Below are positions 2,587 through 63,562 of a DNA stretch of 64,000 bases, piece after piece. A model generated the notes under the pieces. That model searched no databases. It had not been told where the DNA came from and worked only from the letters and a program-made list of their open reading frames with translations. Every line of letters begins with the position of its first letter. Within the stretch, counting starts at the first letter, position 1. The stretch is from positions 3,746 through 67,745 of the forward strand of contig JBBDRA010000002.1 of NCBI GenBank assembly GCA_040905715.1, given 5' to 3'. Origin of the DNA: Minisyncoccota bacterium. GTDB taxonomy: Bacteria; Patescibacteriota; Minisyncoccia; Phycocordibacterales; CSBR16-193. A program made the translations under genes and the position numbers.

Positions 2587-2658
2587 GCGCCCGTAGCTCA
2601 ATGGTAGAGCGCGAAGCTTATACCTTCGTGGTTCCCGGTTCGAATCCAGGCGGGCGCA
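2587..2658 (+). tRNA. tRNA with anticodon UAU (putative tRNA-Ile decoding AUA)
   Basis: Folds by hand into a cloverleaf: 7-bp acceptor stem GCGCCCG/CGGGCGC, U8 A9, D-arm GCTC/GAGC, anticodon stem CGAAG/CTTCG with loop CTTATAC (U33, anticodon 34-36 = TAT), T-loop TTCGAAT and discriminator A. There is one C-A mismatch in the T-stem and CCA is not encoded. Confidence 0.7.
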
Positions 2659-2923
2659 CAAAATATGCGAAGCAGATTTTTGGTGTCTGCAAGGAGAGCA
2701 TTTCTGCTCTCCTGTCTGGATGAGAAAGGCGGAGCCATGTCGCACGGAGCGGAGCGAGTACGACGGGCGAGCCCGGCCAGGAGCCCACTTAGCGAATGAA
2801 GACCGAAGGGATGAGTGAGCTTAGTGAGCTGACGGCGAATCCAGGCGGGCGCACCAGACAATAATACAAAACAGCCTTGTGGTTAAACAGGGCTGTTTTT
2901 TGAAACTCTCATAAGACGATCAC

Positions 2924-16430: not shown

Positions 16431-17033
16431 CTATTCGAGAATGCCATCAAGGTTCACATCGTAGAGTATCTCTTCTTGAATAAGTCGGTAGCTTACCAAT
16501 TCATCCTTAGAGAACCAGTGCTCGATTTCTCGCTCTGCCTCCTCCGGTGAATCCGAGCAATGAATAAGATTACGTACTGCTCGATCATCTGATGAGCAAA
16601 TAGCATACGAATCTACCGTAAAATCTCCGCGAATGGTACCCACGTCAGATGTAGCCGGCTCAGTCTCTCCCACCAACTTCTTAACCACTGCAGCTGCTTG
16701 ATTGCCCTGGAGCGCCAACATAACAACCGGACCTGAGGTCATGTAATTAATAAGAACCTTGATAATATTTCGCCCGTACTCGATCGCCTCCTCCTCGATC
16801 GGCAGTCCGGCCTTTTTTCTATCTTCAACGATCCGTTCACCTTTTTCAGTAAACCACGCATCATCTTTGTTATAGTGCTCGAGAAGCTTCTTTTCGTCAG
16901 CCAAGGTAAACTTGAGTCCGATAATCTTCAGCCCAACGCGCTCAAACCGCTTGATCACTTCTCCGACGAGTGAGCGCTGAATACCGTCTGGTTTTATAAT
17001 AACGAATGTTCGTTCATCTTTGTGATGAGCCAT
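16431..17033 (-). CDS. ndk: nucleoside diphosphate kinase with C-terminal extension
   Basis: ERTFVIIKPDGIQRSLVGEVIKRFERVGLKIIGLKF matches the NDK N-terminus. The 200-aa product is longer than a canonical NDK. Confidence 0.75.
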   Translation of the reverse strand: MAHHKDERTFVIIKPDGIQRSLVGEVIKRFERVGLKIIGLKFTLADEKKLLEHYNKDDAWFTEKGERIVEDRKKAGLPIEEEAIEYGRNIIKVLINYMTSGPVVMLALQGNQAAAVVKKLVGETEPATSDVGTIRGDFTVDSYAICSSDDRAVRNLIHCSDSPEEAEREIEHWFSKDELVSYRLIQEEILYDVNLDGILE

Positions 17034-17132: not shown

Positions 17133-19901
17133 TCATTTCCGATATCGCTTTTGGATCATCTCCTCTACAACTGTCCGATCTTCGCCATACGTCAGATACG
17201 AGAGCTGCTTCATTCTCTCAGCATGTTCGTAATCACCCTCTGTAGGTGCCTGGGTCGCGATCGAGAAAGGCTTGACCGGTTCACCACCGACCAGCATACG
17301 AATGTAGGCATTGCGATTCTGCACGTTCATGAGGTCCTGCGAATGTACGGTTGGTTGGAATTGATGCTCAAGAAACTCTGCATCATCCGAACCAATACGA
17401 AATGAACACATTGAACCCACGTTACCAAAGATAGAGTCTTTAATTCCTTCGTCAAGCTGCGCAATGTACTGGTGAGCAACGTTAAGGCTGAGCTTGTACT
17501 TACGCGCCTCCGAAAGGATCGTTGAAATAGAATCAGTTGTTACATTCTGAAACTCATCAATATAGAGATAGAACGGATCGATCTCACCTTTACCGTACCG
17601 GTCAACCCGTGAGAGTGTTGCCATTAAGATCTTGCCGACAATAATAAGTCCAAGCAGGTTCGCGTTCAAGTCGCCGAGTGTTCCCTTCGCCAGGTTCACC
17701 AAAAGGATCTTTCGGCTGTCCATTACTTCACGAAAATTGAAACTCGAGTATTCCTGAGAGATGATCGGTCGCATGATGTCGTTTGACATAAAGACATCGA
17801 ACTTACTGGTGATGTATGGCACGATATTCTGCAAGCTCGCCTCACCGCCTGCTTTGCCGGCTACTTCCTCCCAGAACTGGTTAACCACTGAGTTGTTGCT
17901 ATTGGCGATCTTTTGTTTACGAAACGCATCATCAGTCAGAACTCGTGAAATGTCGAGCATTGTGTTCCCACTATCCGGATGTTCCACAACCAACATCGCC
18001 GCATTACGAAAATACTGTTCGAACATCGGCCCCATCGACTCCGGCACGCTCGAGTATAGTTTCTGGAATATTTTGAAAAGCTCATTGACCACGAACGTCT
18101 TCTGCTCCGGGTGTGCCGGATCGTACTCAAGCATATTGAGACCCATCGGTCGCTCGGTATAACTAGGGTCAAAGTAGATCACATCCTGCATACGCTCTTT
18201 GGGGACCGCCGAAAGAACATCCTGGACATCAGCCCCATGAGGATCGATAAAACAGAGACCTTCCCCGTTTTGTATATCCTGCACCATCATATTTTTCAAC
18301 AACGTGGTCTTACCGGTACCGGTCTGACCGATAACGTAGAAGTGACGCAGACGATCATCGGCACTCATCTTTATCTCCTGCTCCTGATTTCGGTGCTTAT
18401 TCACGCCCAAAAGGATCCCTTCTTTTGAAAGTCCCGCCGGAGCCGGCACACTCACCCCTTTAGTCTCTTTAAGCTGAGATGGCCCTTTAAGACCCAGAGT
18501 CTCAAAGTGAATAATGCTCGTAAGTTCGGTCGTGTTAAGCGGAAGGCTGGACGCATCCTCAAATTTACGAAACGCAAAATTATTGATCAGTTTCTGCATC
18601 TTGCCCCGCTTCATACGCCGAAAACCAAACGTGTTACCGTTGGTGTTCTCGAACTGATTGAACGCTGATTCCATGTCTGAAAGGATCGTCTCAGCCTCGT
18701 GCTGCGTGCGAGACGATGCGATCAGACGAATGTTAGTGCGCATCAATGGGCTGGCGATCTTTGTCTCGATCTGCTCTATAGCGTTTTGATCAACCTCTTT
18801 CGGCTCATCCTGTTTTTCGTCGTCCTTTTTCTTGGTTGAACTAGAGAAAAATTCAAAGAAGCCGCTCGCAACATCTCGAGTCATCTCGCCGACCACATTA
18901 AGCATCGCATTCTTTGTTGCATCGTTTACCGACACACCTTTCTTTATCGCGGAAATTGCCTCGTCATATTTGCTTTTAATATTCGCAACTCCTTCCGTGG
19001 AGATCACTATCTGTACCGCCGCACCTTCACCATCGCGGTCAACGTTCGTAAAGCTGTTGAGGATCACGTTCATCGGGTCGTGATCGAACGATTCATAGGT
19101 TTTGATCGGATACGCGGGATTATGCTCAAAGACCGCAACCGAACCGGCGGTAGCACCCTCGTAATTAAAAATATTGTAGTCGTCCGGCGCCTCGCGTACT
19201 TGTGCGTCTGAATACACCGAGAGGATCTGCTTATGAAAAAGCTCGGCCTTCTCGCTCGGCACAGAGACATAGAAACTATACTCATCGGCACTGTCCGGCA
19301 ACGCAAGCTCAATCGTGAATGACGACTGCCCGGTCTCAGATCGGGTTGCAGAGCGCATACCGGCAAAGAACTGCTCCATTGACGAGAGCAGGTCTTGAAG
19401 AGGTTTTTGATTGTCTTCCTCGTTGTATTCACGAGGAAGAACGACCTCATAGAGCGTATGCCGAAGCGAGCGCGCCAGCGGGGACTTGGGTTTCAAGCCA
19501 TTAATGCTATACCCCTCTCTAAGGTACTCCACCAAAAAACGATGGAAGTCGTCCTCAAGGTGCGGATTATTCATCTTTTCGATGATCGCCAGCGTATTCT
19601 TAACCCCCTTCTCGTGGACCATCTCAATGAATTCGGCCATCTGTGTATCGTGCTCTTCCGGCGCAAGGTCAAGCGCGATCTTTTCAGCACCCTCGTCTGA
19701 TTCTTGGAACTGACGAATCACGACGCCGTCCGCGCTCTCTGCACGGTATTCACGAACAACGTCATTTGCCGCCTCATCCGTATCTTTGCCTGCTTCAGCG
19801 TATGAGCGCTCACGCTCCGCCACCTCACGCCGGAGGTGTTCACGCTCTTCGCTCAAAGATCGAAACGGCTGTTCCGGTTTTTTTAGGTGCGCATCTTCCA
19901 T
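17133..19901 (-). CDS. large soluble P-loop ATPase of the TraD/VirD4/FtsK-HerA type (coupling-protein-like), with an uncharacterised ~480-aa N-terminal region
   Basis: Walker A FYVIGQTGTGKTTLLKNM, then CFIDPHGADVQDV, Walker B-like YLYIDEFQNVTT and a TraG-D_C-like NVAHQYIAQLDEGIKDSIFGNVGSMCSFRIG. There is no N-terminal TM segment. Confidence 0.6.
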   Translation of the reverse strand: MEDAHLKKPEQPFRSLSEEREHLRREVAERERSYAEAGKDTDEAANDVVREYRAESADGVVIRQFQESDEGAEKIALDLAPEEHDTQMAEFIEMVHEKGVKNTLAIIEKMNNPHLEDDFHRFLVEYLREGYSINGLKPKSPLARSLRHTLYEVVLPREYNEEDNQKPLQDLLSSMEQFFAGMRSATRSETGQSSFTIELALPDSADEYSFYVSVPSEKAELFHKQILSVYSDAQVREAPDDYNIFNYEGATAGSVAVFEHNPAYPIKTYESFDHDPMNVILNSFTNVDRDGEGAAVQIVISTEGVANIKSKYDEAISAIKKGVSVNDATKNAMLNVVGEMTRDVASGFFEFFSSSTKKKDDEKQDEPKEVDQNAIEQIETKIASPLMRTNIRLIASSRTQHEAETILSDMESAFNQFENTNGNTFGFRRMKRGKMQKLINNFAFRKFEDASSLPLNTTELTSIIHFETLGLKGPSQLKETKGVSVPAPAGLSKEGILLGVNKHRNQEQEIKMSADDRLRHFYVIGQTGTGKTTLLKNMMVQDIQNGEGLCFIDPHGADVQDVLSAVPKERMQDVIYFDPSYTERPMGLNMLEYDPAHPEQKTFVVNELFKIFQKLYSSVPESMGPMFEQYFRNAAMLVVEHPDSGNTMLDISRVLTDDAFRKQKIANSNNSVVNQFWEEVAGKAGGEASLQNIVPYITSKFDVFMSNDIMRPIISQEYSSFNFREVMDSRKILLVNLAKGTLGDLNANLLGLIIVGKILMATLSRVDRYGKGEIDPFYLYIDEFQNVTTDSISTILSEARKYKLSLNVAHQYIAQLDEGIKDSIFGNVGSMCSFRIGSDDAEFLEHQFQPTVHSQDLMNVQNRNAYIRMLVGGEPVKPFSIATQAPTEGDYEHAERMKQLSYLTYGEDRTVVEEMIQKRYRK

Positions 19902-19956
19902 TACCTCCCTATTGTACCGCAGATCCGCGCAACCGTATGTTGAAAACCATTCAAAT

Positions 19957-19990
19957 AAAAACAGCTCGGTAGCACCGAGCTGTTTTTATT
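19957..19990. terminator. bidirectional terminator
   Basis: AAAAACAGCTCGGT-agca-CCGAGCTGTTTTT. Confidence 0.6.
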
Positions 19991-20004
19991 TACCTTATTT
20001 TCAT

Positions 20005-20301
20005 TTACTCATCATCTTTGTCGTAATCCGTCTCATCAGGATTTTCTTCATCACTGAACAATTCTCCCCCGAAATACGCTTCATCCAACACTTTTGCCAT
20101 ATCCTGAAGCTTAGAATCCCCTTCCTCTCCGGCCTGTTTGATCAGACCCATGATCTCTTCTTTACTCTTACCGGATTCCGCAATGAGCTCATCTAGATCA
20201 GGCGTCCTGTGATCATAGAGCTCAAAAAGCATCTCAATATTTGCTTTCGTGCCTTCGTAAACTTCAACACCTTTATCTAATGACATTCCATCGATACTCA
20301 T
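20005..20301 (-). CDS. small acidic hypothetical protein
   Basis: 98-aa ORF in an apparent operon with the ATPase. C-terminal DEENPDETDYDKDDE. Confidence 0.4.
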   Translation of the reverse strand: MSIDGMSLDKGVEVYEGTKANIEMLFELYDHRTPDLDELIAESGKSKEEIMGLIKQAGEEGDSKLQDMAKVLDEAYFGGELFSDEENPDETDYDKDDE

Positions 20302-20404
20302 GTGCCCAAATGTTATTTGCTTCTGATAACTTAGTCAACGATTCTAACAAAGAAATCAGTAAAGTAAAGAAAGGTGGGGATAACCTAGTGTGACAATCTA
20401 AAAG

Positions 20405-20437
20405 TTTAACGGCTCACATTACATGTGAGCCGTTAAA
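20405..20437. terminator. palindromic hairpin of the same family as 14231-14267
   Basis: TTTAACGGCTCACAT-tac-ATGTGAGCCGTTAAA. Confidence 0.45.
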
Positions 20438-20458
20438 TCCTCTCGAATATTCTCTTAT

Positions 20459-20746
20459 TTATGAATTTGAGGCCTTTTTTTCTTCCCGATCCAGCTCTGC
20501 CATCGCCTCACTTTCCTGCTTATCAATATCGCCCAGAAGCTTCATAGCCTCATCGAGTGTTTCGGCGTACTCTTCATTAAGATCGGTCATATACTGCATA
20601 TACGCGACCAGCATCTTCACCACCTGCTCACCCTGCTCCTTATCGCTTATCGGCCGGGAAACCAGCTCCTGGATCGCGACCTTCGCTTCGTCAAACTTCT
20701 CTTGTTCTAGAAGCGCTTTAACATCTTGAGTGACAGTGTTACTCAT
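20459..20746 (-). CDS. small alpha-helical hypothetical protein
   Basis: About 95 aa. The start at 20746 (MSNTVTQDVKALLEQ...) abuts the stop of the upstream 957-aa gene. Confidence 0.4.
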   Translation of the reverse strand: MSNTVTQDVKALLEQEKFDEAKVAIQELVSRPISDKEQGEQVVKMLVAYMQYMTDLNEEYAETLDEAMKLLGDIDKQESEAMAELDREEKKASNS

Positions 20747-23612
20747 GTTTATTTTGCTTATCGATACGGGCAATATGTTCGTTTATGATATCTATTTTAC
20801 AATCACGGCATTCATCTTCAGCGAGTTTCTCGTCCTCAAGCATCTCGCGTAATGCCACTACAACCTCATCGCGGTACCTTCGCACGGTCGCTGCATCCTT
20901 TCCTTCTGCTCGATCAGTAACACGTCTCAACCTGGCAGAAAGACCGTTTCCGAAGAAAGGATGCACCGGAGTATTCAAAACAGTATTCCTCACATCTTCC
21001 TTCACTAGCGGCAAAAACAACTTCTCGTAGTATTCCTTCAGGAACTTTTTCTCTTCAGAAGTTAGCTCATTCTTTGCTGCAATATCACGGGCTTGAGCCT
21101 TAAGAGCTTCCTTCTCTTTATCGCTCATTTCACTTGCCTCACTTTGACTCAGTGTGTGATACGCTTCAGCAAAAGACTCACCGGCAGTATCATGAACCTG
21201 TCGAGCTCCAGTGACCATATCAGCCGCTTTCCTCCGCAGGTTCTGGAACTTTTCGTGAAGAGCTTCGCGCTCTGACCCTTCTATTCTATCTGATCTGGTC
21301 GGCCACTCGCCGCGATCCTGAAGCTCCAGCTGAACGAGTCGCATCTCAGCGCGTATCTCTCGTACATCCTTTCGACGCCACGCACCGATACCAAGAACGT
21401 CGTGCACGGTTCGTTGAGCTTCCTGCTGTGCTTTGTATTTCTTAGAGAAGAGAGCGAAGACCGGAAGCATGAACCCGACACCGCTAAGAAATTCCATTGG
21501 CTTCTGCGCATCATCCAGAAGCTTGTGTCGTTTCAAGAGCTCCTTAACCTGCATCTCCTTGCGTGCGACCGTCGCGATAGATTCAGTATATCGCTGAGTG
21601 ATACCCTCAAGTTTTTGAGCACGTTCCGGATTACTCTCGGCGAGTGCTCTCAAATACTCTTTTCCTTTTTCCAGCTGTTCTGGAGAAATTCCGACCTGCT
21701 CACCAAGCTCATCGAACATCTGTTCCAAACTCACCGGCACGGATTCAGCCCTACTCTCCCCGTTACCCGGAGTACCTTCTACACCAGATTCTCCATCCGG
21801 AGCACCTTCTTTCGAAGACTCCTTCAAACCGCCAGCCTCACGGCCCATCATATTATCCTCCTCGAAGAGCGCGTTGTAGTCGGTTTTCTTTTGAGGTTCT
21901 CGTGGCAACTCCTTCTCCTTGTCTTTGTCCGGCTCGGCTTTCTCTTCCGCCCCCCTTTCTATTTTCTCGCGCATCTGCTTTTCGAGGGCTATTACGTTTT
22001 TCACGCACTTTTGTATCTCAGCAGGAACATCTTTTGTGAGTCTGTTTTCGTCTCGCCGACTTAACGCAGCATACACCGAGCTGAACACACGTCGTTTGTT
22101 CAATGAGTGCGGAAACTGATCCGCGTCGATCCGCAACACCGCGTCGATCACATCTTCTCGAGTGGGATTCACCATGTTTTCAAACGCTTCAGGTCCATAC
22201 CCTTTGCGCTCCCCTTCGGCTGACTGTTCTGTTGGCCCTTTCTTTTCTTGTACTTTTTCCCCTTTCTCACTTGTTTCTTTATCTCCACGCTGTTCCCACT
22301 CGTCCCATCTCATCATCTGTCCTTGTTCACTAAAACGATTCGGCCAGACGATCTTACCGCGCCCTCCGGAAGAAGGCTGATCCAGCTTAATCTCGGCAGC
22401 TTCATCAGTATCTGGCTGTGTCGACTCTTGATGCCCCGTTCCTCCCTCGACATCTCCTGTTTCAACCTCAAGATCAGCAACGGTCTGCGCTTTGTTTTTA
22501 TCAATAACTTCCTGCACTTTTTGTCGAAGCGCGCCAAGCGGCGGCGTCCTACGTACCACCTCATTACCAAGATCCTCTCTCACCGCAGACCATATAACGT
22601 CAGGCGATACCTGTACATCCTCGGGATCGGTTTCTATGGTTGTAACGTACTCTCTTGCTATCGGACCTACCTCATAAATAGTATCTTTGATCTTTTGTGG
22701 GGACGGATATTTCATCCTATCAAATTCATAGAACGGTCCGTCTTTCATCCATGGTTTCTCTTGCACGCCGCGCGGCCCACCCTTCTTTGAGGGCGGAGTA
22801 GTATCAATAACAACATCCTCATGCTCACCATCCGGCAACCTGACCTGCGAACGTCGCTTCACATATATCGTTGACCTTCGGGCATTATAAAGCACAGTGA
22901 GTAAGGCACCCGCCTCAACGGTCACATGAACATCTTCCAAATTTTCTACGATCCAGTGCTCTCCTGCGGGAACCGTTTCCCCATCAGGAATTTTAGTAAA
23001 TTCTTGTTTCTCTAACAGGTCATCAGTCTTCTCTTCCTCTGGCTCTGGCCCTGTATTTTGATTTGTTTCATTACCCAAAGACCGCTCTCTGCCCTCACTC
23101 TTCGGTGGTTTCTGTAGGTTATGACGACGAACGGGCCGCACCAGCTCCCGTGCCTCTTTAGCGTCGGGTGATTCATGAAACGGCACGGCGCGAGTCCATG
23201 CATGTATACCACCATGCTTTTCTTTATTTTCTCCTCCTTCGTTTTCTTTCTCTTGTGCAAGCTTTTCTTTTAGTTGCTGTCGTTTATTTTCGATCGCCGT
23301 TCGCAATAGTGGATATAGCGACCCCGGTTGTGGATTCATCTCTTCAAGCTCGATATCCTTATCTAAATCAGAAATATTTTTTTCTACCTGTTCATCAATA
23401 AACTCATTCCACTTTTCTTTTTCATCATCATTAAAATCAGCAGCTTTATCTATTGCAGCATGGATGCTTTCTACAGTGGCTTCCTCCACATTCCACAACT
23501 GCTCCTGAAACCCGTCAGGGATTCGCTTCCTCCCCGACTCATGCTGAATAGCGAGTTTCTTTTCACGGTTGATGTTTACCGGTCGGCCTTCCGGTTTTTC
23601 TGGAGATGTCAT
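20739..23612 (-). CDS. 957-aa highly charged (E/K-rich), predicted coiled-coil/disordered hypothetical protein
   Basis: Long uninterrupted ORF with one short hydrophobic segment (FLSGVGFMLPVFALFS). No catalytic motif seen. It lies immediately downstream of map. Confidence 0.55.
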   Translation of the reverse strand: MTSPEKPEGRPVNINREKKLAIQHESGRKRIPDGFQEQLWNVEEATVESIHAAIDKAADFNDDEKEKWNEFIDEQVEKNISDLDKDIELEEMNPQPGSLYPLLRTAIENKRQQLKEKLAQEKENEGGENKEKHGGIHAWTRAVPFHESPDAKEARELVRPVRRHNLQKPPKSEGRERSLGNETNQNTGPEPEEEKTDDLLEKQEFTKIPDGETVPAGEHWIVENLEDVHVTVEAGALLTVLYNARRSTIYVKRRSQVRLPDGEHEDVVIDTTPPSKKGGPRGVQEKPWMKDGPFYEFDRMKYPSPQKIKDTIYEVGPIAREYVTTIETDPEDVQVSPDVIWSAVREDLGNEVVRRTPPLGALRQKVQEVIDKNKAQTVADLEVETGDVEGGTGHQESTQPDTDEAAEIKLDQPSSGGRGKIVWPNRFSEQGQMMRWDEWEQRGDKETSEKGEKVQEKKGPTEQSAEGERKGYGPEAFENMVNPTREDVIDAVLRIDADQFPHSLNKRRVFSSVYAALSRRDENRLTKDVPAEIQKCVKNVIALEKQMREKIERGAEEKAEPDKDKEKELPREPQKKTDYNALFEEDNMMGREAGGLKESSKEGAPDGESGVEGTPGNGESRAESVPVSLEQMFDELGEQVGISPEQLEKGKEYLRALAESNPERAQKLEGITQRYTESIATVARKEMQVKELLKRHKLLDDAQKPMEFLSGVGFMLPVFALFSKKYKAQQEAQRTVHDVLGIGAWRRKDVREIRAEMRLVQLELQDRGEWPTRSDRIEGSEREALHEKFQNLRRKAADMVTGARQVHDTAGESFAEAYHTLSQSEASEMSDKEKEALKAQARDIAAKNELTSEEKKFLKEYYEKLFLPLVKEDVRNTVLNTPVHPFFGNGLSARLRRVTDRAEGKDAATVRRYRDEVVVALREMLEDEKLAEDECRDCKIDIINEHIARIDKQNKHE

Positions 23613-23658: not shown

Positions 23659-24444
23659 TTATTCTGTTGTGTCAGGCACTCGGGTCAGCACCTCCGGACC
23701 GTTCTCAGTTATAGCAATAGTGTGTTCAAAATGAGCTGAAAGAGATCCGTCAGCAGTTCGTATAGTAAAGCCGTCGCTGTCGGTTGAGATATCATCCGTA
23801 CCCATTGTGAGCATTGGCTCGATCGCGATCACGAGTCCCGCCTCAAGGCGCTCGCCGTGCCCCGGCGTACCGGTGTTTGGCACAAACGGCTCTTCATGCA
23901 CCTCGTGGCCGACACCGTGGCCGGCCAGACCACGCGAGAGTGCGTAGCCATGGGGGCGCACGAATGTCTCGATCGCGCTACCGATATCACCGGTTGTTGC
24001 GCCTTGCTCCGCCGCCTGAATACCATGCTCCAGTGATTCCCGCGTCACCCGCAAAAGATCTTCGGCACTCGGGTCGATCTTTCCCACACCCAACGTTACT
24101 GCTGAGTCGGTGATCAGATCATTATATACCAGCCCCATATCAATAGTTACAATATCTCCTTCTTGAAGAGTGTAATCCCTCTCATTGGGTATGCCGTGAA
24201 CGATCACGTCGTTGACGGATACACACAACGCGGCCGGATACGGACGAGGGGCACCCGAAGGTTGGTACTTGAAAAACGCCGGCGTACCGCCATGCTTTTC
24301 GGCGAGAACATGAGCATGCTCATTAATGGACGACGTAGTTACTCCCGGCCCTATTTCTTCGGCGAGCGTCGATAAAATTTGAGCGAGCCGCCCTCCTCCT
24401 TCGCGCAGTTCTTTGATCTCGGCAGGTGTTTTTAGTTGAATCAT
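23659..24444 (-). CDS. map: methionine aminopeptidase type I
   Basis: VIVHGIPNERDYTLQEGDIVTIDMG, then the metal ligands GHGVGHEVHEEP, and IAIEPM. Confidence 0.9.
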   Translation of the reverse strand: MIQLKTPAEIKELREGGGRLAQILSTLAEEIGPGVTTSSINEHAHVLAEKHGGTPAFFKYQPSGAPRPYPAALCVSVNDVIVHGIPNERDYTLQEGDIVTIDMGLVYNDLITDSAVTLGVGKIDPSAEDLLRVTRESLEHGIQAAEQGATTGDIGSAIETFVRPHGYALSRGLAGHGVGHEVHEEPFVPNTGTPGHGERLEAGLVIAIEPMLTMGTDDISTDSDGFTIRTADGSLSAHFEHTIAITENGPEVLTRVPDTTE

Positions 24445-24530: not shown

Positions 24531-24586
24531 AATAAAATATTAGAGTTATATTAGAGTTAACTCTAATATAACTCTAATATTTTATT
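24531..24586. terminator. 56-nt perfect palindrome (TATTAGAGTTA motif x2 on each arm) abutting the kinase stop
   Basis: AATAAAATATTAGAGTTATATTAGAGTT / AACTCTAATATAACTCTAATATTTTATT. A U-rich tail follows on the minus strand. Confidence 0.6.
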
Positions 24587-25291
24587 TTACACACGTCCAT
24601 CGTTTCGAATCACCGTGCCGACGAAATTGTTACCTTCGAAGTAATCACGTACATTCTCGATCCGACCGTTTAAAATGCCTACTTCAAGGTCAAATTCTTC
24701 TGCTGCTTTTGCGGCAATGGGGTCAAACGGCGCGCTGAGACCGGGGTCCCACGTAGTCGGCAAAAGGGTGCGGAACCGGGCCCAGTCTGTCTTCTCTATC
24801 TTTACCGCATCAGCATGCTCATTTGGATCCTTATCATATACATACTCAACATTTGAAAGGTTCAATACTCTTCTGGCGCCGAACTTCTTAGCGAACTGGA
24901 CTGCAACATAGTCCGTACTCCAGCCCGGCTTCCAGCCGGCACCGATCGTGATCGGTTCATTCGGCCGTACAATCTCCTTTTCCGGATCGAACAGTATATC
25001 CGAGTGTGCCCGGTCACCAAACGCCATTTTGAGGAACTGCGCATTGAGACGTGTAGCGTGAATACCTATCCAGTCCAATTCTGTATTTTCTACACTCCGA
25101 ATGTGGGACAAAGCCTCTTGATACCGTCGCGCAACCTTTCCCCCACCGGTGATAATAAAAAATCGTTTACCCTGATCAGTAAACGATGAAACGAGATCTA
25201 CAAATTGCCTCACAAAATCTGAATCGACAGTGTCAGGAGCAATGAGTGATCCTCCGAGTGAAATGACAATTGTTTCAGATTCTGATGACAT
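24587..25291 (-). CDS. amino-acid-kinase-family protein (putative archaeal-type UMP kinase or related nucleotide/isoprenoid phosphate kinase)
   Basis: TIVISLGGSLIAP, then IITGGGKVARRY, and GWKPGWSTDYVAVQFA, which matches the carbamate/amino-acid kinase fold. It sits next to adk. Confidence 0.55.
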   Translation of the reverse strand: MSSESETIVISLGGSLIAPDTVDSDFVRQFVDLVSSFTDQGKRFFIITGGGKVARRYQEALSHIRSVENTELDWIGIHATRLNAQFLKMAFGDRAHSDILFDPEKEIVRPNEPITIGAGWKPGWSTDYVAVQFAKKFGARRVLNLSNVEYVYDKDPNEHADAVKIEKTDWARFRTLLPTTWDPGLSAPFDPIAAKAAEEFDLEVGILNGRIENVRDYFEGNNFVGTVIRNDGRV

Positions 25292-37808: not shown

Positions 37809-39002
37809 TTATTCAACGATCTTTGTCACTACTCCAGCTCCCACAGTCTTACCCCCTTCGCGAATAGCAAAGCGCTGCTGCTCTTCGAGTGCAACCGGTG
37901 CCTGCAAACTTACGCTGAACGTAGTTGTGTCACCTGGCATTACCATCTCTACTCCTTCCGGAAGGGTTACCTCACCGGTAACGTCAGTGGTTCGGATGTA
38001 GAACTGTGGCTTGTATCCGGTTAGGAATGCTGTGTGACGACCCCCTTCCTCCTTCTTAAGGGTGTACACCTCAGCCTCAAACTTGGTGTGCGGGGTAACT
38101 GAGCCCGGCTTTGCCAACACCTGACCGCGGTGAACCTCTTCTTTCTTGAGTCCACGGATCAAAATACCGGCGTTGTCACCTGCTTTTCCTTCCTTAAGTG
38201 ACTTGTTGAACATCTCAATACCGGTCACTGTGGTCTTCTGTGTATCTTTGATACCGACGATCTCGATCTCTTCACCAACAGTGATCTCTCCTCGCTCAAT
38301 ACGGCCTGTTACTACAGTACCGCGACCTTCAATCGAGAAGATATCCTCAACCGGCATAAGAAACGGCTTGTCGGTCTCACGCTGAGGTGTCGGAATGTAG
38401 TCATCCAACGCCTTCGCAAGCTCAAGGATCTTTGCAGCATACTCTTCGCTTGCGTCTGAAGACTCAAGAGCCTTTAGGGCTGAACCTCGAATGACCGGCG
38501 CGTTTTCTCCGTCGTAATCGTACTGAGTCAAAAGCTCACGCACCTCTTCTTCAACAAGGTCGATAAGATCAGCGTCATCAACCATGTCGCACTTGTTTAG
38601 GAAGATGATGATCTTCGGCACTCCAACCTGCTTAGCGAGCAGGATGTGCTCTCGCGTCTGCGGCATAACACCGTCAGTTGCGGCAACTACTAATACAGCA
38701 CCGTCCATCTGAGCGGCACCCGTAATCATGTTCTTCACATAGTCGGCGTGACCCGGCGCATCGATGTGCGCATAGTGACGAGCATCTGTTGAATACTCGT
38801 TGTGAGACAATGCGATCGTAATACCGCGAGCCTTCTCCTCAGGCGCGGCGTCGATCTGGTCTACGTTCTTCTCTGACACGTCCTGCCCCGAAAGGTGGAG
38901 AACGTGCAGAATAGCAGCGGTTAAGGTCGTCTTCCCGTGGTCAACGTGACCAATGGTACCGACATTAACATGCTCTTTTGATCGATCAAATTCTGCAGCC
39001 AT
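37809..39002 (-). CDS. tuf: elongation factor Tu
   Basis: [52 protein letters not shown]. Confidence 0.97.
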
Positions 39003-39720: not shown

Positions 39721-41679
39721 TTAATCAACAATAACCACCTCGTTATAGTCCCAGCTTCCCCGGCGATAAGGCGCAGTATCACCAAGCTTGGTATTTTCAA
39801 TATAGATATCCTTCACCGGTAATTCGGTCACGCCGAAGACTCGGCCGTGGAACCACGAATCTTTCACTACAAGATGGTCAGCTGATTCAATAGTGAGCGA
39901 GTGTGGCCACCACTTATCTTTTTCCTCGTGTCGATTTGAAAGCTCGATATTAACAAAGGCAATATCTTTGTCTGTGTCCCCTCCCATAAAGAACCCTTGG
40001 GAATGAATATCCTTTGTTGCTGTCACGCCGTATGCGATCTGATTCTTTGATGAGCCCAAAAGTTGATACACGTCGGGGTGTGCGGTTGGTACACCAGACT
40101 TATCACGGTCGACATCTTCCACTGAACTATTGAGCAGCAGTCGAGCATTAGTGAACGAGTCCTCACCGATACGATGAAGGTCCGTATTTCGCACAATGTT
40201 CCCGCTAAATCCTTTAACATTGTTCGTCAAAGAAGAATTCGTAATATGCGTACTAACCACGTCTGCGGACCAGCGAACACTGTTTGACCGCTCATTGCCG
40301 ACAATATTCAGATCATCCATCCAAATATGCCGGGCAAAACGCCCACCAGCAGAATGAGCATGGAAAAGGATCCCTACATCCGGCAACTGAAAGCGAATGC
40401 CACTGACCAGTAAATGATTATTAGTAAAACGTTCCTTTAAATTGTTCGTAACAATAACGTCATTCCGTGATGTGCCGGGAGCACCGGAAACGACCACCCA
40501 GGTATCACTATCAATACCTTCCAGTCTAAATCCGTCATACGTACCTGCCTGTAGATATATCACCGGCGCTCGACTACCATCGTTTTTGGCTGCCACGCTC
40601 GCCTTCCATACGGTCTTATACGGGTTATTTTTTGAGCCGTCACCGCTCTCATCCGACCCCCCAGGCGATACATAGTAGTGATCGGGGTCATACGTTCCAT
40701 TCTTGTTAACCACTAGCTCAATGCCATGCTCGCCGCGCGGAGCACCATTAATATCTCCGGCCAACACCCGTGCCACCCCTTTATTTGGATATACCACCGC
40801 CCGCACTTCAACCGGGCCATCTACGCTGAACTTAGACGCATCAAGAGTTGCCCAGTATTCCTTCACATCAGTGCGCGGATTATGAGTCATTGTAGAGACT
40901 GAAGTCCATGGACCGCCATCGACCGAAAACTCAACCCGATCGATGCTGTCTTTATGAAAAGCAACAACTCCCACATTAAATATATTGGAAAATGACTGGA
41001 ACGGCACCACATCCCACCGAGCGATCGCCTGGGCATCTTCATTCCCGATCTGGTCAGGTTGAGGGGTCTCTCCTGCAAAACCATTTCCAGGAACGAGAAC
41101 TTTTCCTTCCGGAGCAGAGGTGTCTCTTTCCTTCTCCTCTTCTTCTCTCGTATCTTCTTGTTCATCGTCACCCTGCCCACTAACACCATCGTCTTTCTTG
41201 TTGGCAGTATCGTCGTTCTCTTCTTCGTTATTTTTTTCTTTGTCTGACTCCTGATCCTCCTTATCTTCCTCGTCCGCTTCGTCTCTAGAATCTCTCTCAT
41301 CCTTCGATCCATCATCTTCCGACTCCTCTGAGTCTGGTTCATCCTGCTTCTCAACGTCGTCTTCAGATCTATCTTCACTCTCATCTGCTTGATCCGGCTT
41401 AGTATCATCTTCCTCATCATTCTGTTCCTCTTCACGACCTTCTCCATTATCAGCCGAATCTCTAGACGTTTCTTCCACTTCCTCCTCAGTTTCATCGTCC
41501 TTTAAAGCGGTCTTCTCCTCTTTGCTACTATCATCAGACTCACGTTCCTCGTGCGGCACCACCGTTAAAGAGTTAGTGTCGTCGTTTTCCGTCCCAGAGG
41601 GGTTTGATGCACCAGAAACACCCCCGGCAAGTAAAACGAGGAGGAGCATTGGAAACAGGACTGAGTTTTTGTTTGCCAT
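39721..41679 (-). CDS. secreted right-handed parallel beta-helix (pectate-lyase/DUF1565-like) protein with long acidic low-complexity linker and Ig-like domain
   Basis: Signal peptide MANKNSVLFPMLLLVLLAGGVSGAS, then a D/E-rich linker of about 170 aa. YYVSPGGSDESGDGSKNNPYKTVWKASVAAKNDGSRAPVIYLQAGTY is the hallmark start of a beta-helix domain, followed by repeated N/S-rich beta-helix rungs. It is inserted between fusA and tuf. Confidence 0.6.
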   Translation of the reverse strand: MANKNSVLFPMLLLVLLAGGVSGASNPSGTENDDTNSLTVVPHEERESDDSSKEEKTALKDDETEEEVEETSRDSADNGEGREEEQNDEEDDTKPDQADESEDRSEDDVEKQDEPDSEESEDDGSKDERDSRDEADEEDKEDQESDKEKNNEEENDDTANKKDDGVSGQGDDEQEDTREEEEKERDTSAPEGKVLVPGNGFAGETPQPDQIGNEDAQAIARWDVVPFQSFSNIFNVGVVAFHKDSIDRVEFSVDGGPWTSVSTMTHNPRTDVKEYWATLDASKFSVDGPVEVRAVVYPNKGVARVLAGDINGAPRGEHGIELVVNKNGTYDPDHYYVSPGGSDESGDGSKNNPYKTVWKASVAAKNDGSRAPVIYLQAGTYDGFRLEGIDSDTWVVVSGAPGTSRNDVIVTNNLKERFTNNHLLVSGIRFQLPDVGILFHAHSAGGRFARHIWMDDLNIVGNERSNSVRWSADVVSTHITNSSLTNNVKGFSGNIVRNTDLHRIGEDSFTNARLLLNSSVEDVDRDKSGVPTAHPDVYQLLGSSKNQIAYGVTATKDIHSQGFFMGGDTDKDIAFVNIELSNRHEEKDKWWPHSLTIESADHLVVKDSWFHGRVFGVTELPVKDIYIENTKLGDTAPYRRGSWDYNEVVIVD

Positions 41680-41789
41680 AGAATAAAATATGTGGCTGAA
41701 ATAACACATCAATCTATACTATAAAAAAAGACAAAGCGCAAGGGCTTTGTCTTTTTTGTATCTTGGTTTCTCTCTTGATCGGGCGAGAT

Positions 41790-43943
<2,154 letters not shown>

Positions 43944-55925: not shown

Positions 55926-56813
55926 CTAACACGTCACACATCTCACCTCTTTTCCGTCACTTTCGAACGTCACCGTTCCAACTTTTGCTGTTTGCACCAC
56001 TTCGATCCCGAACTGTGCCAGCCGATCAAGAACCTCCTGGTGCGGATGCCCATAACTATTATCTTCTCCCGCCGAGATCACAGCGTATTCCGGCTGACTC
56101 CAGCCAAGCCAGGACAGGGCTGTTGAGGTGTCCGAGCCGTGGTGGCCGACCTTGAGTACGTTGCTTTTAATATTTTCCCGGTAGGTGCGGGCAATATATC
56201 TCTCTACCACCTTGGGCGCATCGCCGGAGAGGAGAAACGCCGTATCTCCATACACCAACCGCCCTACGATCGAGGCGTCATTGGGGTCCATACCCTCAGG
56301 GTCGACCGGCGGGAACAGCACATCGAAATGAACCCGGGGCGAAAGACGAATGCTATCGCCGGATCGAAGCTCGCGCACCCGCACGTTCTGCACCTCTGCG
56401 TCGTTCAACAAAGCATCATCAAGTGAACTTTCACTTGAAACTCCTGAGTGTAAAAGAGACCCAACCGAGTAGCGACCGATCACTGCCGGTAAACCACCAA
56501 TATGGTCAGCGTCCGGATGGGTTGCTAATACAACATTGATCGACCGGTCCCAGAACGGCATCGCCCCACTCAGACCGTGTGTTACTCGCACGCTTCTGCT
56601 GCCGTCTATCAACATTTGATTACCGTTCGGAGCTTCAATATAGATGGCATCACCTTGGCCGACATCGAGAAAGGAAACAACGAGCGTATCTTTTGTAGAT
56701 TCATTGAATAAAACATAATATAAAAATGCGGTGAGAACGATCAGTGCTATCGTCACAATAATGAGCGGATTCTCTTTCAGCAAGGACGCACTTTCTTTTC
56801 GGGGCATGTTCAT
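55926..56813 (-). CDS. membrane-anchored metallo-beta-lactamase-fold protein resembling the C-terminal domain of ComEC/Rec2
   Basis: N-terminal TM LIIVTIALIVLTAFLYYVLF. VSFLDVGQGDAIYIE, LATHPDADHIGG and VGHHGSD match the ComEC-type MBL motifs. Confidence 0.7.
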   Translation of the reverse strand: MNMPRKESASLLKENPLIIVTIALIVLTAFLYYVLFNESTKDTLVVSFLDVGQGDAIYIEAPNGNQMLIDGSRSVRVTHGLSGAMPFWDRSINVVLATHPDADHIGGLPAVIGRYSVGSLLHSGVSSESSLDDALLNDAEVQNVRVRELRSGDSIRLSPRVHFDVLFPPVDPEGMDPNDASIVGRLVYGDTAFLLSGDAPKVVERYIARTYRENIKSNVLKVGHHGSDTSTALSWLGWSQPEYAVISAGEDNSYGHPHQEVLDRLAQFGIEVVQTAKVGTVTFESDGKEVRCVTC

Positions 56814-63139: not shown

Positions 63140-63154
63140 TGCCGGTATGATATC

Positions 63155-63562
63155 ATGAAGCCATCTATGACAAACGACAAACAAACAAATTGTACTTTCT
63201 GTAAAATTGTTGCCGGTGACGTGCCGGCTGAAAAGATTTATGAAGACGAGCATTTTCTCGCCTTTCTTGATATCAACCCGCAGGCGCCGGGGCACGCGCA
63301 GGTGATACCAAAAGAACACTACCGCTGGGTCTGGGACCTGCCCGCCGAAAAAGACACGCTCGAAAATGCGGGAGATTATTTTCGTGTAGCACAGAAGATC
63401 GCCAAAGCACAACAGAAAGCTTTCAGCACAGAATGGATCCTTTCAAAAATTGTCGGCGACGAAGTTCCCCACGCCCACATCTGGGTCTTCCCCGGTGACG
63501 CAAAAGGAGGCAAGCAAGACATCGCGGAGAACGCCGAGAAGATCCGCCAAGCACTCGAATGA
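63155..63562 (+). CDS. HIT-family (histidine triad) nucleotide hydrolase
   Basis: CTFCKIVAGDVPAEKIYEDEHFLAFLDINPQAPGHAQVIPKEH, then HAHIWVFP. The open frame begins at 62975; start set at the internal Met at 63155, which is divergent from recJ with a 15-bp spacer. Confidence 0.75.
   Translation: MKPSMTNDKQTNCTFCKIVAGDVPAEKIYEDEHFLAFLDINPQAPGHAQVIPKEHYRWVWDLPAEKDTLENAGDYFRVAQKIAKAQQKAFSTEWILSKIVGDEVPHAHIWVFPGDAKGGKQDIAENAEKIRQALE

What the first reader, a model, noticed from the sequence alone, without database searches (positions are those of the whole stretch)
17133..23612. Uncharacterised four-gene cluster: soluble TraD/VirD4-like ATPase, a 957-aa charged coiled-coil protein and two small proteins, sitting where the alpha-operon normally follows map
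Immediately after map (where infA-rpmJ-rpsM-rpsK-rpsD-rpoA-rplQ is expected) there is a co-directional set: a 957-aa E/K-rich protein, a ~95-aa helical protein, a 98-aa acidic protein, and a 922-aa ATPase. The ATPase has a C-terminal half carrying Walker A (GQTGTGKTT), FIDPHGAD, Walker B (YLYIDEFQN) and a TraG-D_C-like tail typical of conjugative coupling proteins and the FtsK-HerA superfamily. It has no TM anchor and carries a ~480-aa N-terminal region of unknown type. Gene overlap and tight spacing suggest an operon. The combination does not match a canonical T4SS, HerA-NurA or a known defence-system layout.
Basis: partly seen in the sequence, partly recalled or inferred. Interest (0 to 1): 0.6.

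Follow-up and report, generated by a model that had tools for sequence, protein, structure and literature searches.

The report
Conserved secretion-type ATPase in Paceibacteria
The four genes are real but are not a conserved unit: only the 922-aa ATPase is, a motor protein related to conjugation/type IV secretion ATPases that ultrasmall Paceibacteria keep as a core chromosomal gene, in about half the species next to ribosomal-protein genes, with its role unknown.

Summary
All four ORFs exist on the minus strand (957, 95/104, 98 and 922 aa), between map and ndk, in a Paceibacteria ribosomal-protein supercluster.

They are not a conserved module. All four occur together in 1 of 85 related loci. 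The 957-aa protein has no database homolog but itself. In the window, strong hairpins separate p95 from p98 and p98 from the ATPase.

The conserved element is the ATPase, Pfam DUF8128:
- It was found in at least 570 species-level genomes.
- It evolves as slowly as map and ndk.
- It lies between map and ndk in about half the loci, and among other housekeeping genes in the rest.
- No relaxase or T4SS genes were seen in the contexts I annotated.

Full-length distant homologs sit beside relaxase-family genes on Bacillus plasmids.

Shorter relatives (690-840 aa) carry one N-terminal membrane helix. In three of the four contexts examined, a small upstream gene precedes them, and its conserved module is fused into residues 85-131 of this soluble form.

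Best reading: a domesticated T4SS-family translocation ATPase. Substrate and partner channel are unknown.

The parts
17133..19901 (-). 922-aa ATPase, long soluble form of the DUF8128 family. This is the only conserved element of the finding.
   Evidence: More than 2233 homologs, 53-66% identical over the full length, all with Patescibacteria/Parcubacteria-type names where named. At least 570 species-level genomes. Median identity 50.6%, against map 51.6%, ndk 47.1%, adk 42.4% and secY 58.7% in the same 24 loci.
19497..19901 (-). N-terminal helical extension (residues 1-135), specific to the long soluble form. It occupies the N-terminal position that the TM helix holds in short forms.
   Evidence: AF2 helices H16-128. 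0 of 136 proteins of 870 aa or more have an N-terminal hydrophobic helix; 23 of 29 proteins under 870 aa do, including 8 independent cluster representatives.
19509..19649 (-). Conserved module (residues 85-131, motif kG(i/v)..A(l/i)......NPH(l/i).D.fH..L(i/v)E). It is homologous to the C-terminus of the small protein encoded just upstream of TM-anchored short forms, which indicates a gene fusion.
   Evidence: An HMM of the extension gave its two best non-ATPase hits, among roughly 1600 ORFs, to L090_up141 (E 3e-4) and L087_up129 (E 8e-3). hhalign probability 94.8%, E 5e-8, 47 columns. P81, H84, D85, G99, N102, H114, D118 and R121 are invariant.
18492..19484 (-). Alpha/beta N-terminal domain (about residues 140-470), Pfam DUF8128, with a VirB4 N-terminal-domain fold. 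It contains a disordered acidic/basic linker at residues 335-366.
17232..18419 (-). C-terminal P-loop ATPase domain (about residues 495-890) of the TrwB/VirD4/VirB4/HerA type, with an all-helical insertion (about 598-728) between Walker A and Walker B.
   Evidence: Pfam TraG-D_C, DUF87, TrwB_AAD_bind and T4SS-DNA_transf across all or many of 30 members. NCBIfam SXT_TraD E 1.5e-13, below its cut-off. PDB profile search: TrwB E 5e-5. Secondary structure.
18303..18329 (-). Walker A, GQTGTGKTT (residues 525-533).
   Evidence: Translation. Residues 525-531 are invariant.
17544..17570 (-). Walker B, YLYIDEFQN (residues 778-786).
   Evidence: Translation. Y778 and D782-N786 are invariant.
20005..20301 (-). 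98-aa very acidic protein (net charge -21) with no detectable homolog. It is bracketed by hairpins and has promoter-like sites upstream, so it is probably its own transcription unit.
   Evidence: Acidic small ORFs are enriched next to the ATPase across loci (Mann-Whitney p 8e-5).
20459..20746 (-). 95-aa helical acidic protein (ATG start; 104 aa if read from the TTG at 20773). Its start overlaps the stop of the 957-aa gene.
   Evidence: Homologs only in L004 (36% identity, E 6e-13), L034 and L038.
20739..23612 (-). 957-aa highly charged, lineage-specific protein. The N-terminal two thirds are low in hydrophobic residues. The C-terminal third is weakly conserved and includes a hydrophobic stretch at residues 705-723.
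   Evidence: The only hit in 5.8 billion proteins is itself. 30% identity over 181 aa to the 886-aa protein at the same position in L004. Composition.
20405..20437 (-). Terminator-like hairpin after p95.
   Evidence: 15-bp stem followed by a T-rich tail. -25.0 kcal/mol, z -8.8.
19952..19992 (-). Terminator-like hairpin after p98, 51 nt upstream of the ATPase start codon.
   Evidence: 19-bp stem. -25.8 kcal/mol, z -7.4.

Best explanation
The conserved feature is the 922-aa ATPase alone. It is a chromosomally fixed member of the type IV secretion ATPase clade (VirB4/VirD4), and Paceibacteria keep it as a core gene.

Anatomy:
- Residues 1-135 are a helical extension that contains a fused copy of a small partner protein.
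- Residues 140-470 are an alpha/beta domain with the fold of the VirB4 N-terminal domain. In the R388 T4SS structure that domain docks VirB4 onto VirB3/VirB8 at the membrane (this point is from my own knowledge of that structure).
- Residues 495-890 are a coupling-protein-like P-loop domain with intact Walker A and B motifs and a helical insertion.

Inferred mechanism: the protein assembles into a ring-shaped, ATP-driven translocation or assembly motor at the cytoplasmic face of the membrane. It would feed a macromolecular substrate (nucleic acid or protein) into an envelope channel, most plausibly the relaxase-less T4SS that Patescibacteria carry. Short-form relatives reach the membrane through their own TM helix. 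The soluble fused form here would have to be recruited by protein contacts.

The three upstream genes are fast-evolving, lineage-specific acidic proteins. They may be adaptors, substrates or unrelated insertions. They are not a fixed part of the system.

Shown: homology, fold, conservation, synteny, the two architectures and the fusion. Inferred: oligomer state, ATP hydrolysis, membrane recruitment, the channel and the substrate.
For: - Family size and conservation.
- VirB4-NTD fold from two independent methods applied to a confident model. The full-length model also ranks TrwK/VirB4 first, then DotL and HerA.
- Coupling-protein-like sequence signals.
- Full-length homology to Bacillus plasmid DUF87 ATPases (hhalign probability 99.7%, 654 columns). 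These lie directly upstream of Replic_Relax genes and near TcpD/TcpE/VirB4-like conjugation genes, and the plasmid has no other annotated coupling protein.
- TM-anchored short forms and their fused or split small partner.
- Stable chromosomal housekeeping contexts. No relaxase or T4SS gene appeared among the Pfam-annotated genes of nine contexts or among the 20 recurrent neighbour clusters whose sequences I read. No relatives were found in viral contigs.
- Published survey: 5,713 VirD4-like T4CP homologs in 2,918 Patescibacteria genomes, only 148 of them near virB4, and relaxases almost absent. The authors raise exaptation as a possibility (PMC12102498).
Against: - No physical or genetic link to T4SS structural genes was seen in any locus examined (about 6-10 kb on each side).
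- Genome-wide co-occurrence with virB4 could not be tested.
- Family-specific HMM cut-offs for VirD4/TraD and VirB4 are not reached. hhalign against a bona fide monoderm VirB4-like protein gives 1.3% probability.
- The ATPase domain of the AF2 model has low confidence (pLDDT 50-70).
- In Southlakia (Saccharimonadia) a T4CP homolog was reported as non-essential (PMC12102498). Whether it is of this type is unknown.
- The role of the Bacillus plasmid homologs as coupling proteins is inferred from gene position only.
Confidence: 0.55

Rival explanations
1. It is a cytoplasmic DNA translocase or helicase-like motor for chromosome maintenance (recombination, repair, segregation), in the manner of FtsK or HerA. 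It would not be a secretion-linked ATPase.
For: - The protein belongs to the same superfamily as FtsK and HerA.
- RmuC (a DNA recombination protein) recurs downstream of the gene in unrelated lineages. Its start overlaps the ATPase stop in L087, and it lies within two or three genes in L025, L029, L036, L040 and L051.
- DnaX lies two genes downstream in L090 and L091.
- This form is soluble.
Against: - The N-terminal domain is VirB4-like, not the HerA HAS-barrel and not an FtsK architecture.
- Short forms are membrane-anchored.
- No NurA-like nuclease partner was seen.
- The nearest full-length relatives outside the CPR sit in conjugation gene clusters.
Confidence: 0.2
2. It is a nucleic-acid import motor for nucleotide salvage. 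It would pull host-derived DNA or RNA into the cell through ComEC or a T4SS-type channel and be co-expressed with the kinases that recharge the released nucleotides.
For: - In about half the loci the gene lies between adk (with or without a UMP-kinase-like AA_kinase gene), map and ndk.
- Coupling proteins translocate ssDNA (my own knowledge of the family).
- A Patescibacteria isolate is reported to feed on host RNA, with T4SS-like tubes seen at the host interface (bioRxiv 10.64898/2026.06.21.733656).
- ComEC and RecJ are present in the window.
Against: - secY-adk-map is ordinary spc-operon synteny.
- The link to ndk is lost in roughly 40 of 85 loci.
- In L087, the one short-form context where ndk is visible, it lies about 6 kb away in a separate gene cluster.
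- No binding or uptake data exist.
Confidence: 0.12
3. One reading: the four genes form one novel functional module (operon), possibly a defence or mobile island inserted after map.
For: - The genes are co-directional, and the 957-aa gene overlaps p95.
- The same four-gene layout occurs in L004, and the p957-like/p95-like pair in L034.
- There is a weak PADLOC mad8 hit (E 1.6e-12).
- Small acidic neighbours are statistically enriched next to the ATPase.
Against: - All four genes occur together in 1 of 85 related loci.
- In 12 loci the ATPase directly follows map.
- The large neighbouring proteins are mutually unrelated.
- Hairpins punctuate the cluster in the window.
- No other MADS or defence components were found.
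- GC content is the same as in the flanks.
- The ATPase evolves at housekeeping rates.
- No relatives were found in viral contigs.
Confidence: 0.05

Closest known systems
VirB4 (TrwK of plasmid R388; PDB 7o42, 8rtd)
   Same: - Two-domain plan: a large alpha/beta N-terminal domain followed by a TrwB-like P-loop domain.
- No integral membrane segment in this form.
   Different: - 8-10% identity.
- VirB4 HMMs (TIGR00929, AAA_10, CagE_TrbE_VirB) are not matched.
- hhalign against a monoderm VirB4-like protein gives 1.3% probability.
- No VirB3/VirB6/VirB8 genes nearby.
- Patescibacteria have a separate canonical VirB4, usually located near dnaA (PMC12102498).
Type IV coupling proteins (TrwB, VirD4, TraD, DotL)
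   Same: - The best sequence matches of the ATPase half: TraG-D_C above its Pfam cut-off, TrwB_AAD_bind, T4SS-DNA_transf, SXT_TraD E 1.5e-13, and TrwB 1e9r E 5e-5.
- A helical insertion between Walker A and Walker B, like the all-alpha domain.
- Probably counted among the 5,713 T4CP homologs of PMC12102498.
   Different: - No two-helix TM anchor. A 470-residue VirB4-like N-terminal region takes its place.
- NCBIfam scores are far below the family cut-offs.
- No relaxase and no T4SS linkage.
- Chromosomal, and evolving at housekeeping rates.
DUF87-type ATPases next to Replic_Relax (relaxase-family) genes on Bacillus plasmids (e.g. WP_144625398.1 on NRS6116_2; AUS14679.1 on CP025942)
   Same: - Homologous over about 650 columns, covering most of the alpha/beta N-terminal domain and the whole ATPase domain (hhalign 99.7%, E 2e-25; BLASTP E 1e-31).
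- Also without a TM helix.
   Different: - 22-24% identity.
- Plasmid-borne, with a relaxase-family gene immediately downstream and a Tcp-like conjugation cluster nearby.
- They lack the N-terminal helical extension.
- I found no experimental characterisation of them in the literature library.
PHROG phrog_5156 / Bacillus phage G gp156
   Same: The profile matches residues 204-919 at E 1.3e-80. gp156 aligns to residues 173-901 at 22.6% identity.
   Different: Phage-encoded and of unknown function. No relatives of the CPR type were found in IMG/VR contigs.
TM-anchored short DUF8128 proteins of other Patescibacteria (e.g. KKP36437.1, Ca. Roizmanbacteria; the 823-aa Minisyncoccia form)
   Same: Same DUF8128 plus ATPase core. 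Housekeeping contexts.
   Different: - They have a single N-terminal TM helix.
- In three of the four contexts examined, a separate small upstream gene of 125-141 aa precedes them. In the window protein its conserved module is fused in and the TM helix is absent.

Membership tests
Pfam DUF8128 (PF26449) family | Match to the PF26449 model in the N-terminal half. | tested here: inconclusive
   Not run here, because the local Pfam copy lacks this model. The database's precomputed annotation lists PF26449 for the 100%-identical protein P0001 and for all 120 listed homologs, and names it DUF8128.
Type IV coupling protein (VirD4/TraD/TrwB) | P-loop nucleotide-binding domain with TrwB-type Walker A/B motifs and a helical insertion. 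| tested here: met
   Motifs are invariant. TraG-D_C scores 25.4 bits against a cut-off of 22. TrwB E 5e-5. Helices 598-728 lie between the Walker motifs.
Type IV coupling protein (VirD4/TraD/TrwB) | Scores above curated whole-family cut-offs. | tested here: not met
   SXT_TraD 50 bits against 366; conj_TOL_TraD 32.5 against 648; CD1115 39.6 against 250. TrwB_AAD_bind 18.3 against 20.5.
Type IV coupling protein (VirD4/TraD/TrwB) | N-terminal transmembrane anchor. | tested here: not met
   No hydrophobic N-terminal segment in this protein or in any of 136 long forms. Short-form relatives do have one TM helix.
Type IV coupling protein (VirD4/TraD/TrwB) | Genetic linkage to a relaxase and/or mating-pair-formation genes. 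| tested here: not met
   None within 6-10 kb among the Pfam-annotated genes of nine contexts or the 20 recurrent neighbour clusters read across 85 loci. Distant Bacillus plasmid homologs do have a relaxase-family neighbour.
VirB4 | VirB4-type N-terminal domain preceding the ATPase domain. | tested here: met
   [not shown]
VirB4 | Sequence membership (TIGR00929, AAA_10, CagE_TrbE_VirB). | tested here: not met
   TIGR00929 scores 16.6 bits against a cut-off of 643. AAA_10 and CagE_TrbE_VirB do not appear in the table for the window protein or among the 25 most-matched families listed for the 30 members. hhalign against the plasmid AAA_10 VirB4-like protein gives 1.3% probability.
VirB4 | Neighbouring VirB3/VirB6/VirB8-type genes. 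| tested here: not met
   Not seen in any annotated context. Genome-wide co-occurrence was not testable.
HerA-NurA | HAS-barrel N-terminal domain and an adjacent NurA nuclease. | tested here: not met
   The N-terminal domain matches VirB4, not HerA. HerA 4d2i matches only the ATPase half. No NurA-like neighbour was seen.
Defence systems (PADLOC; MADS mad8) | Full system gene set around the ATPase. | tested here: not met
   Only a partial mad8 hit (E 1.6e-12, residues 506-824). The other three proteins have no PADLOC hit. Contexts are housekeeping.
Any of the above as an active ATPase or hexameric motor | ATP hydrolysis, ring assembly, substrate translocation. | not testable with these tools
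   Requires biochemistry or cryo-EM.

The most novel reading that the evidence does not exclude
The DUF8128 ATPase is the missing motor or coupling protein of the relaxase-less Patescibacteria T4SS. It would power uptake of host nucleic acids (RNA or DNA) for nucleotide salvage. That would explain why Paceibacteria fixed it between the nucleotide kinases adk, a UMP-kinase-like gene and ndk inside the ribosomal-protein cluster, and why it evolves like an essential gene. The adjacent small acidic proteins would be lineage-specific adaptors, comparable to IcmS/IcmW on DotL.
Probability: 0.1. Interest if true: 0.9.

Novelty: new variant of a known kind. Interest (0 to 1): 0.55.

Why it matters
Patescibacteria make up a large share of bacterial diversity and live by taking material from host cells.

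Their T4SS is reported as essential for epibiotic growth. It lacks relaxases and has no assigned coupling ATPase. Thousands of "T4CP homologs" away from virB4 are unexplained (PMC12102498).

This analysis sets apart one large class of such proteins and gives it concrete, testable properties:
- A VirB4-like docking domain joined to a coupling-protein-like motor.
- Evolution at housekeeping rates.
- A fixed position by the ribosomal-protein genes in many species.
- Membrane-anchored and soluble fused variants.
- A small partner protein identified by gene fusion.

It also links the CPR protein to uncharacterised relaxase-adjacent ATPases on monoderm plasmids. This parallels the proposed monoderm-conjugation origin of the Patescibacteria T4SS.

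Tried and rejected
- Homolog search with the 957-aa protein returned only itself. Its sole detectable relative came from synteny (L004).
- Pfam, NCBIfam, PADLOC and PHROGs scans of p957, p95 and p98 gave nothing meaningful.
- I looked for a conserved partner gene next to long-form ATPases by clustering ORFs from 85 loci. None exists, and the large neighbours are mutually unrelated.
- Mobile-element origin was rejected. GC content matches the flanks, synteny is stable, no relatives were found in IMG/VR, and no integrase or relaxase is nearby.
- Defence system was rejected.
- HerA-NurA was rejected.
- Canonical VirB4 membership was rejected on sequence.
- The Pfam scan could not name the N-terminal half because the local library lacks PF26449.
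- The AFDB fold library was unavailable, so the spread of the N-terminal fold beyond PDB entries is unknown.
- pLS20 was checked as a possible characterised relative. Its T4CP is an ordinary two-TM VirD4 (PMC8557374). The Bacillus plasmid with the homolog carries Tcp-like genes, which suggests a different plasmid family.
- Literature searches for DUF8128, and for CPR together with DUF87, found nothing.
- The hairpin punctuation seen in the window is not present at the same places in L004, so it cannot be generalised.
Full report
**1. What is in the sequence**

The window is a Paceibacteria (Patescibacteria/CPR) ribosomal-protein supercluster read on the minus strand. It runs rpoB, rpoC, rpsL, rpsG, fusA, tuf, the S10/spc genes, secY, adk, a UMP-kinase-like AA_kinase gene and map.

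After map (23659-24444) come four co-directional ORFs:
- p957 at 20739-23612.
- p95 at 20459-20746 (104 aa if read from the TTG at 20773).
- p98 at 20005-20301.
- A 922-aa ATPase at 17133-19901.

Next come ndk (16431-17033), a DUF2238 membrane protein and a beta-CASP RNase. IF3 and L20 lie further on, on the other strand.

No alpha-operon gene turned up among the window ORFs I scanned. Hydropathy finds no TM segment. The raw observation is therefore correct.

**2. Not one operon, not a conserved module**

Only p957 and p95 overlap. The p95-p98 and p98-ATPase spacers each contain a very stable hairpin followed by a T-rich tail (-25.0 and -25.8 kcal/mol; z -8.8 and -7.4). Promoter-like sites lie upstream of p98.

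I collected 85 related loci. Nine came from exact-protein look-ups and 80 from a scan of one genome per species. I then clustered their ORFs. The results:
- About 45 loci read secY-adk-(AA_kinase)-map-[0-3 variable ORFs]-ATPase-[0-3 variable ORFs]-ndk-DUF2238-beta-CASP.
- In 12 of these, map is followed directly by the ATPase.
- In the other roughly 40 loci the ATPase sits among other housekeeping genes. Examples are FtsI/MurF upstream with YqeY/RmuC downstream, or a sigma factor and a helicase upstream with FKBP and Tgt downstream.
- No relaxase, integrase or T4SS structural gene appears among the genes I could annotate.

The three upstream genes are lineage-specific:
- p957 finds only itself among 5.8 billion proteins. 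It shares 30% identity over 181 residues with the 886-aa protein at the same position in L004.
- p95 has homologs only in L004, L034 and L038.
- p98 has none.
- Large neighbours of the ATPase in other loci are mutually unrelated.

One weak regularity remains. Same-strand small ORFs directly adjacent to the ATPase are more acidic than other unnamed small ORFs in the same loci. Median net charge per residue is -0.032 against 0.0 (Mann-Whitney p 8e-5), and 20% against 3% are strongly acidic. This rests on naive ORF calls and on loci that are not phylogenetically independent.

**3. The ATPase is a large, slowly evolving family**

A search of 5.8 billion proteins gave more than 2,233 hits. The best 120 are 53-66% identical over the full length, apart from two closer partial copies. 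Those that carry names are named Parcubacteria, Paceibacteria or Patescibacteria.

All listed hits carry a precomputed Pfam PF26449 assignment, which the context tables name DUF8128. My local Pfam copy lacks that model.

At least 570 species-representative genomes encode the protein. Some record titles say "uncultured Candidatus Saccharibacteria". These loci have Paceibacteria-type synteny, so I treat the label as imprecise.

In the 24 loci that hold all five genes, median identity to the window proteins is secY 58.7%, map 51.6%, ATPase 50.6%, ndk 47.1% and adk 42.4%. The ATPase therefore evolves at housekeeping rates. GC content matches the flanks. No relative was found in IMG/VR contigs.

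**4. What the N-terminal half is**

An AF2 model of residues 1-490, built on a 92-sequence alignment, is confident (pLDDT 82.7, pTM 0.76).
- Foldseek independently places TrwK chains in its top 14 positions at probability 0.93-1.00. The following hits have probability 0.5 or lower.
- The lower-confidence full-length model (pLDDT 67) also ranks TrwK first, with alignments of 786-943 columns. DotL and HerA follow and match the ATPase half only.

The "unknown" region is therefore a VirB4-type N-terminal domain (about residues 140-470) preceded by a helical extension (1-135).

**5. What the C-terminal half is**

By sequence it is closest to coupling proteins:
- Pfam TraG-D_C above its cut-off, and TrwB_AAD_bind, DUF87 and T4SS-DNA_transf in all or many of 30 members.
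- NCBIfam SXT_TraD at E 1.5e-13 and a CD1115 VirD4-like model at E 3e-10, both far below family cut-offs.
- TrwB as the best solved relative, E 5e-5.
- VirB4 models are not matched. hhalign against a bona fide monoderm VirB4-like protein (AAA_10) gives 1.3% probability.

The protein is neither a canonical VirB4 nor a canonical VirD4. It combines a VirB4-like N-terminal fold with a T4CP-like motor.

**6. Relatives outside the CPR**

A tblastn search of plasmids found 518 records: Bacillus 286, Streptomyces 64, Staphylococcus 33, plus haloarchaea and Sulfolobus.

A 913-aa "DUF87" protein on B. subtilis plasmid NRS6116_2 is homologous over 654 profile columns. These span most of the alpha/beta N-terminal domain and the whole ATPase (hhalign 99.7%, E 2e-25; BLASTP E 1e-31). 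On that plasmid:
- A gene annotated "replication-relaxation family protein" lies immediately downstream of it.
- TcpD, TcpE and VirB4-like (AAA_10) conjugation genes are close by.
- No other coupling protein is annotated.

A 24.7-kb plasmid (CP025942) shows the same ATPase-relaxase pairing, and there the downstream protein matches Pfam Replic_Relax. These plasmid proteins also lack a TM helix.

Their position suggests a coupling role, but I found no experimental work on them. pLS20 has an ordinary two-TM VirD4 (PMC8557374).

A phage family of unknown function, phrog_5156, matches residues 204-919 at E 1.3e-80. Bacillus phage G gp156 aligns to residues 173-901.

**7. Two architectures and a gene fusion**

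I searched 1.84 billion cluster representatives with residues 1-490. This gave 931 hits at E up to 1e-3, 536 at 1e-10 and 134 at 1e-30.
- Proteins of 870 aa or more (136 examined) never have an N-terminal hydrophobic helix.
- Shorter proteins of 690-840 aa start their match at about query residue 135-145. Eight independent cluster representatives each carry one N-terminal TM helix. One of them is from Ca. Roizmanbacteria (Microgenomates).

In three of the four short-form contexts examined, a 125-141-aa ORF lies immediately upstream, abutting or overlapping the ATPase start. The fourth context, L092, has no such ORF. The three small proteins are homologous to one another.

They are also homologous to residues 85-131 of the long form's extension:
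- An HMM of the extension gave its two best non-ATPase hits, among roughly 1,600 ORFs, to two of these small proteins (E 3e-4 and 8e-3).
- A profile-profile comparison gives 94.8% probability, E 5e-8, over 47 columns. The shared motif is kG(i/v)..A......NPH(l/i).D.fH..L(i/v)E.

The soluble form in the window is therefore best read as a fusion in which the small partner sits where the TM helix would be. This argues that the partner and the ATPase interact physically, and that the family works at the membrane. Short-form contexts are again housekeeping: RmuC overlapping the ATPase stop in L087, and Asp/AsnRS, GreA and DnaX in L090 and L091.

**8. How it most likely works**

Shown: family membership at superfamily level, intact catalytic motifs, the VirB4-like docking-domain fold, the membrane-anchored variants, the fused partner, strict conservation, and chromosomal housekeeping contexts.

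Inferred: a ring-shaped ATP-driven motor at the inner face of the membrane that energises or gates transfer of a macromolecule through an envelope channel.

The most economical candidate channel is the Patescibacteria T4SS. That system is widespread, essential in Saccharimonadia, almost never linked to a relaxase, and rarely has a T4CP gene next to virB4. The survey's authors note that T4CP homologs may have been exapted (PMC12102498).

Rivals are a DNA-maintenance translocase (recurrent RmuC and DnaX neighbours) and a nucleic-acid import motor for salvage (adk, UMP-kinase-like and ndk neighbours; host-RNA feeding reported in bioRxiv 10.64898/2026.06.21.733656). None can be settled with sequence data. 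No locus shows a T4SS structural gene nearby, and I could not test genome-wide co-occurrence.

**9. Novelty and verdict**

The family is already catalogued. It is Pfam DUF8128, NCBI calls it "TraM recognition domain-containing protein", and it is probably among the counted T4CP homologs. The gene itself is not new, and the proposed four-gene system is not real as a conserved unit.

I did not find the following described in the searchable literature:
- The VirB4-like fold of DUF8128.
- The combination of that fold with a T4CP-like motor.
- The recurrent map-ATPase-ndk position and housekeeping evolutionary rate.
- The split between TM-anchored and soluble fused forms, with an identifiable small partner.
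- The link to relaxase-adjacent plasmid ATPases.

I rate it a new variant of a known kind, with moderate interest (0.55).

Noticed in passing
window 39721-41712 (-): A 663-aa ORF with no Pfam hit (only a weak PHROG tail-protein hit, E 8e-4) sits between fusA (41790-43943) and tuf (37809-39002). It is a second unknown insertion in the ribosomal-protein supercluster.
   Followed up: partly
window 24537-24580: A perfect 20-bp-stem AT-rich palindrome (ATATTAGAGTTATATTAGAGTTAACTCTAATATAACTCTAATAT) lies between the AA_kinase gene and map. It contains a direct repeat of ATATTAGAGTT in each arm.
   Followed up: no
window 24587-25291 (-); loci L004, L005, L047-L086: A UMP-kinase-like AA_kinase gene is inserted between adk and map in a subset of Paceibacteria. 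In others, one to three copies of a Cys-rich protein of about 580 aa (cluster c17) are inserted between AA_kinase and map.
   Followed up: partly
window 2587-2659 (+): tRNA-Ile with anticodon TAT (UAU), an uncommon way to read AUA in bacteria.
   Followed up: no
[not shown]
   Followed up: no
L087 10456-11460; L025, L029, L036, L040, L051: RmuC (DNA recombination protein) recurs downstream of the ATPase in lineages where it is not in the ribosomal cluster. In L087 the RmuC start overlaps the ATPase stop.
   Followed up: partly
window 20739-23612 (-), residues 705-723 of p957: A hydrophobic stretch (PMEFLSGVGFMLPVFALFS, Kyte-Doolittle mean 1.45) lies inside the only region of p957 that is conserved with L004. 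It could be a membrane-associating segment in an otherwise highly charged protein.
   Followed up: no
L088 (B. subtilis plasmid NRS6116_2, NZ_OX419581.1): MOB-suite types this 63.6-kb plasmid as non-mobilizable. Yet it carries a relaxase-family gene, a DUF87 coupling-like ATPase, TcpD/TcpE, a VirB4-like AAA_10 ATPase and a Tad/Flp-type pilus cluster. It is probably an unrecognised conjugative plasmid type.
   Followed up: partly
window 55926-56813, 58982-60526, 61424-63412 (-): ComEC (Competence plus DUF4131 domains), a separate metallo-beta-lactamase-fold protein and RecJ lie about 35-45 kb from the ATPase. These are DNA uptake and processing genes relevant to the import hypothesis.
   Followed up: no
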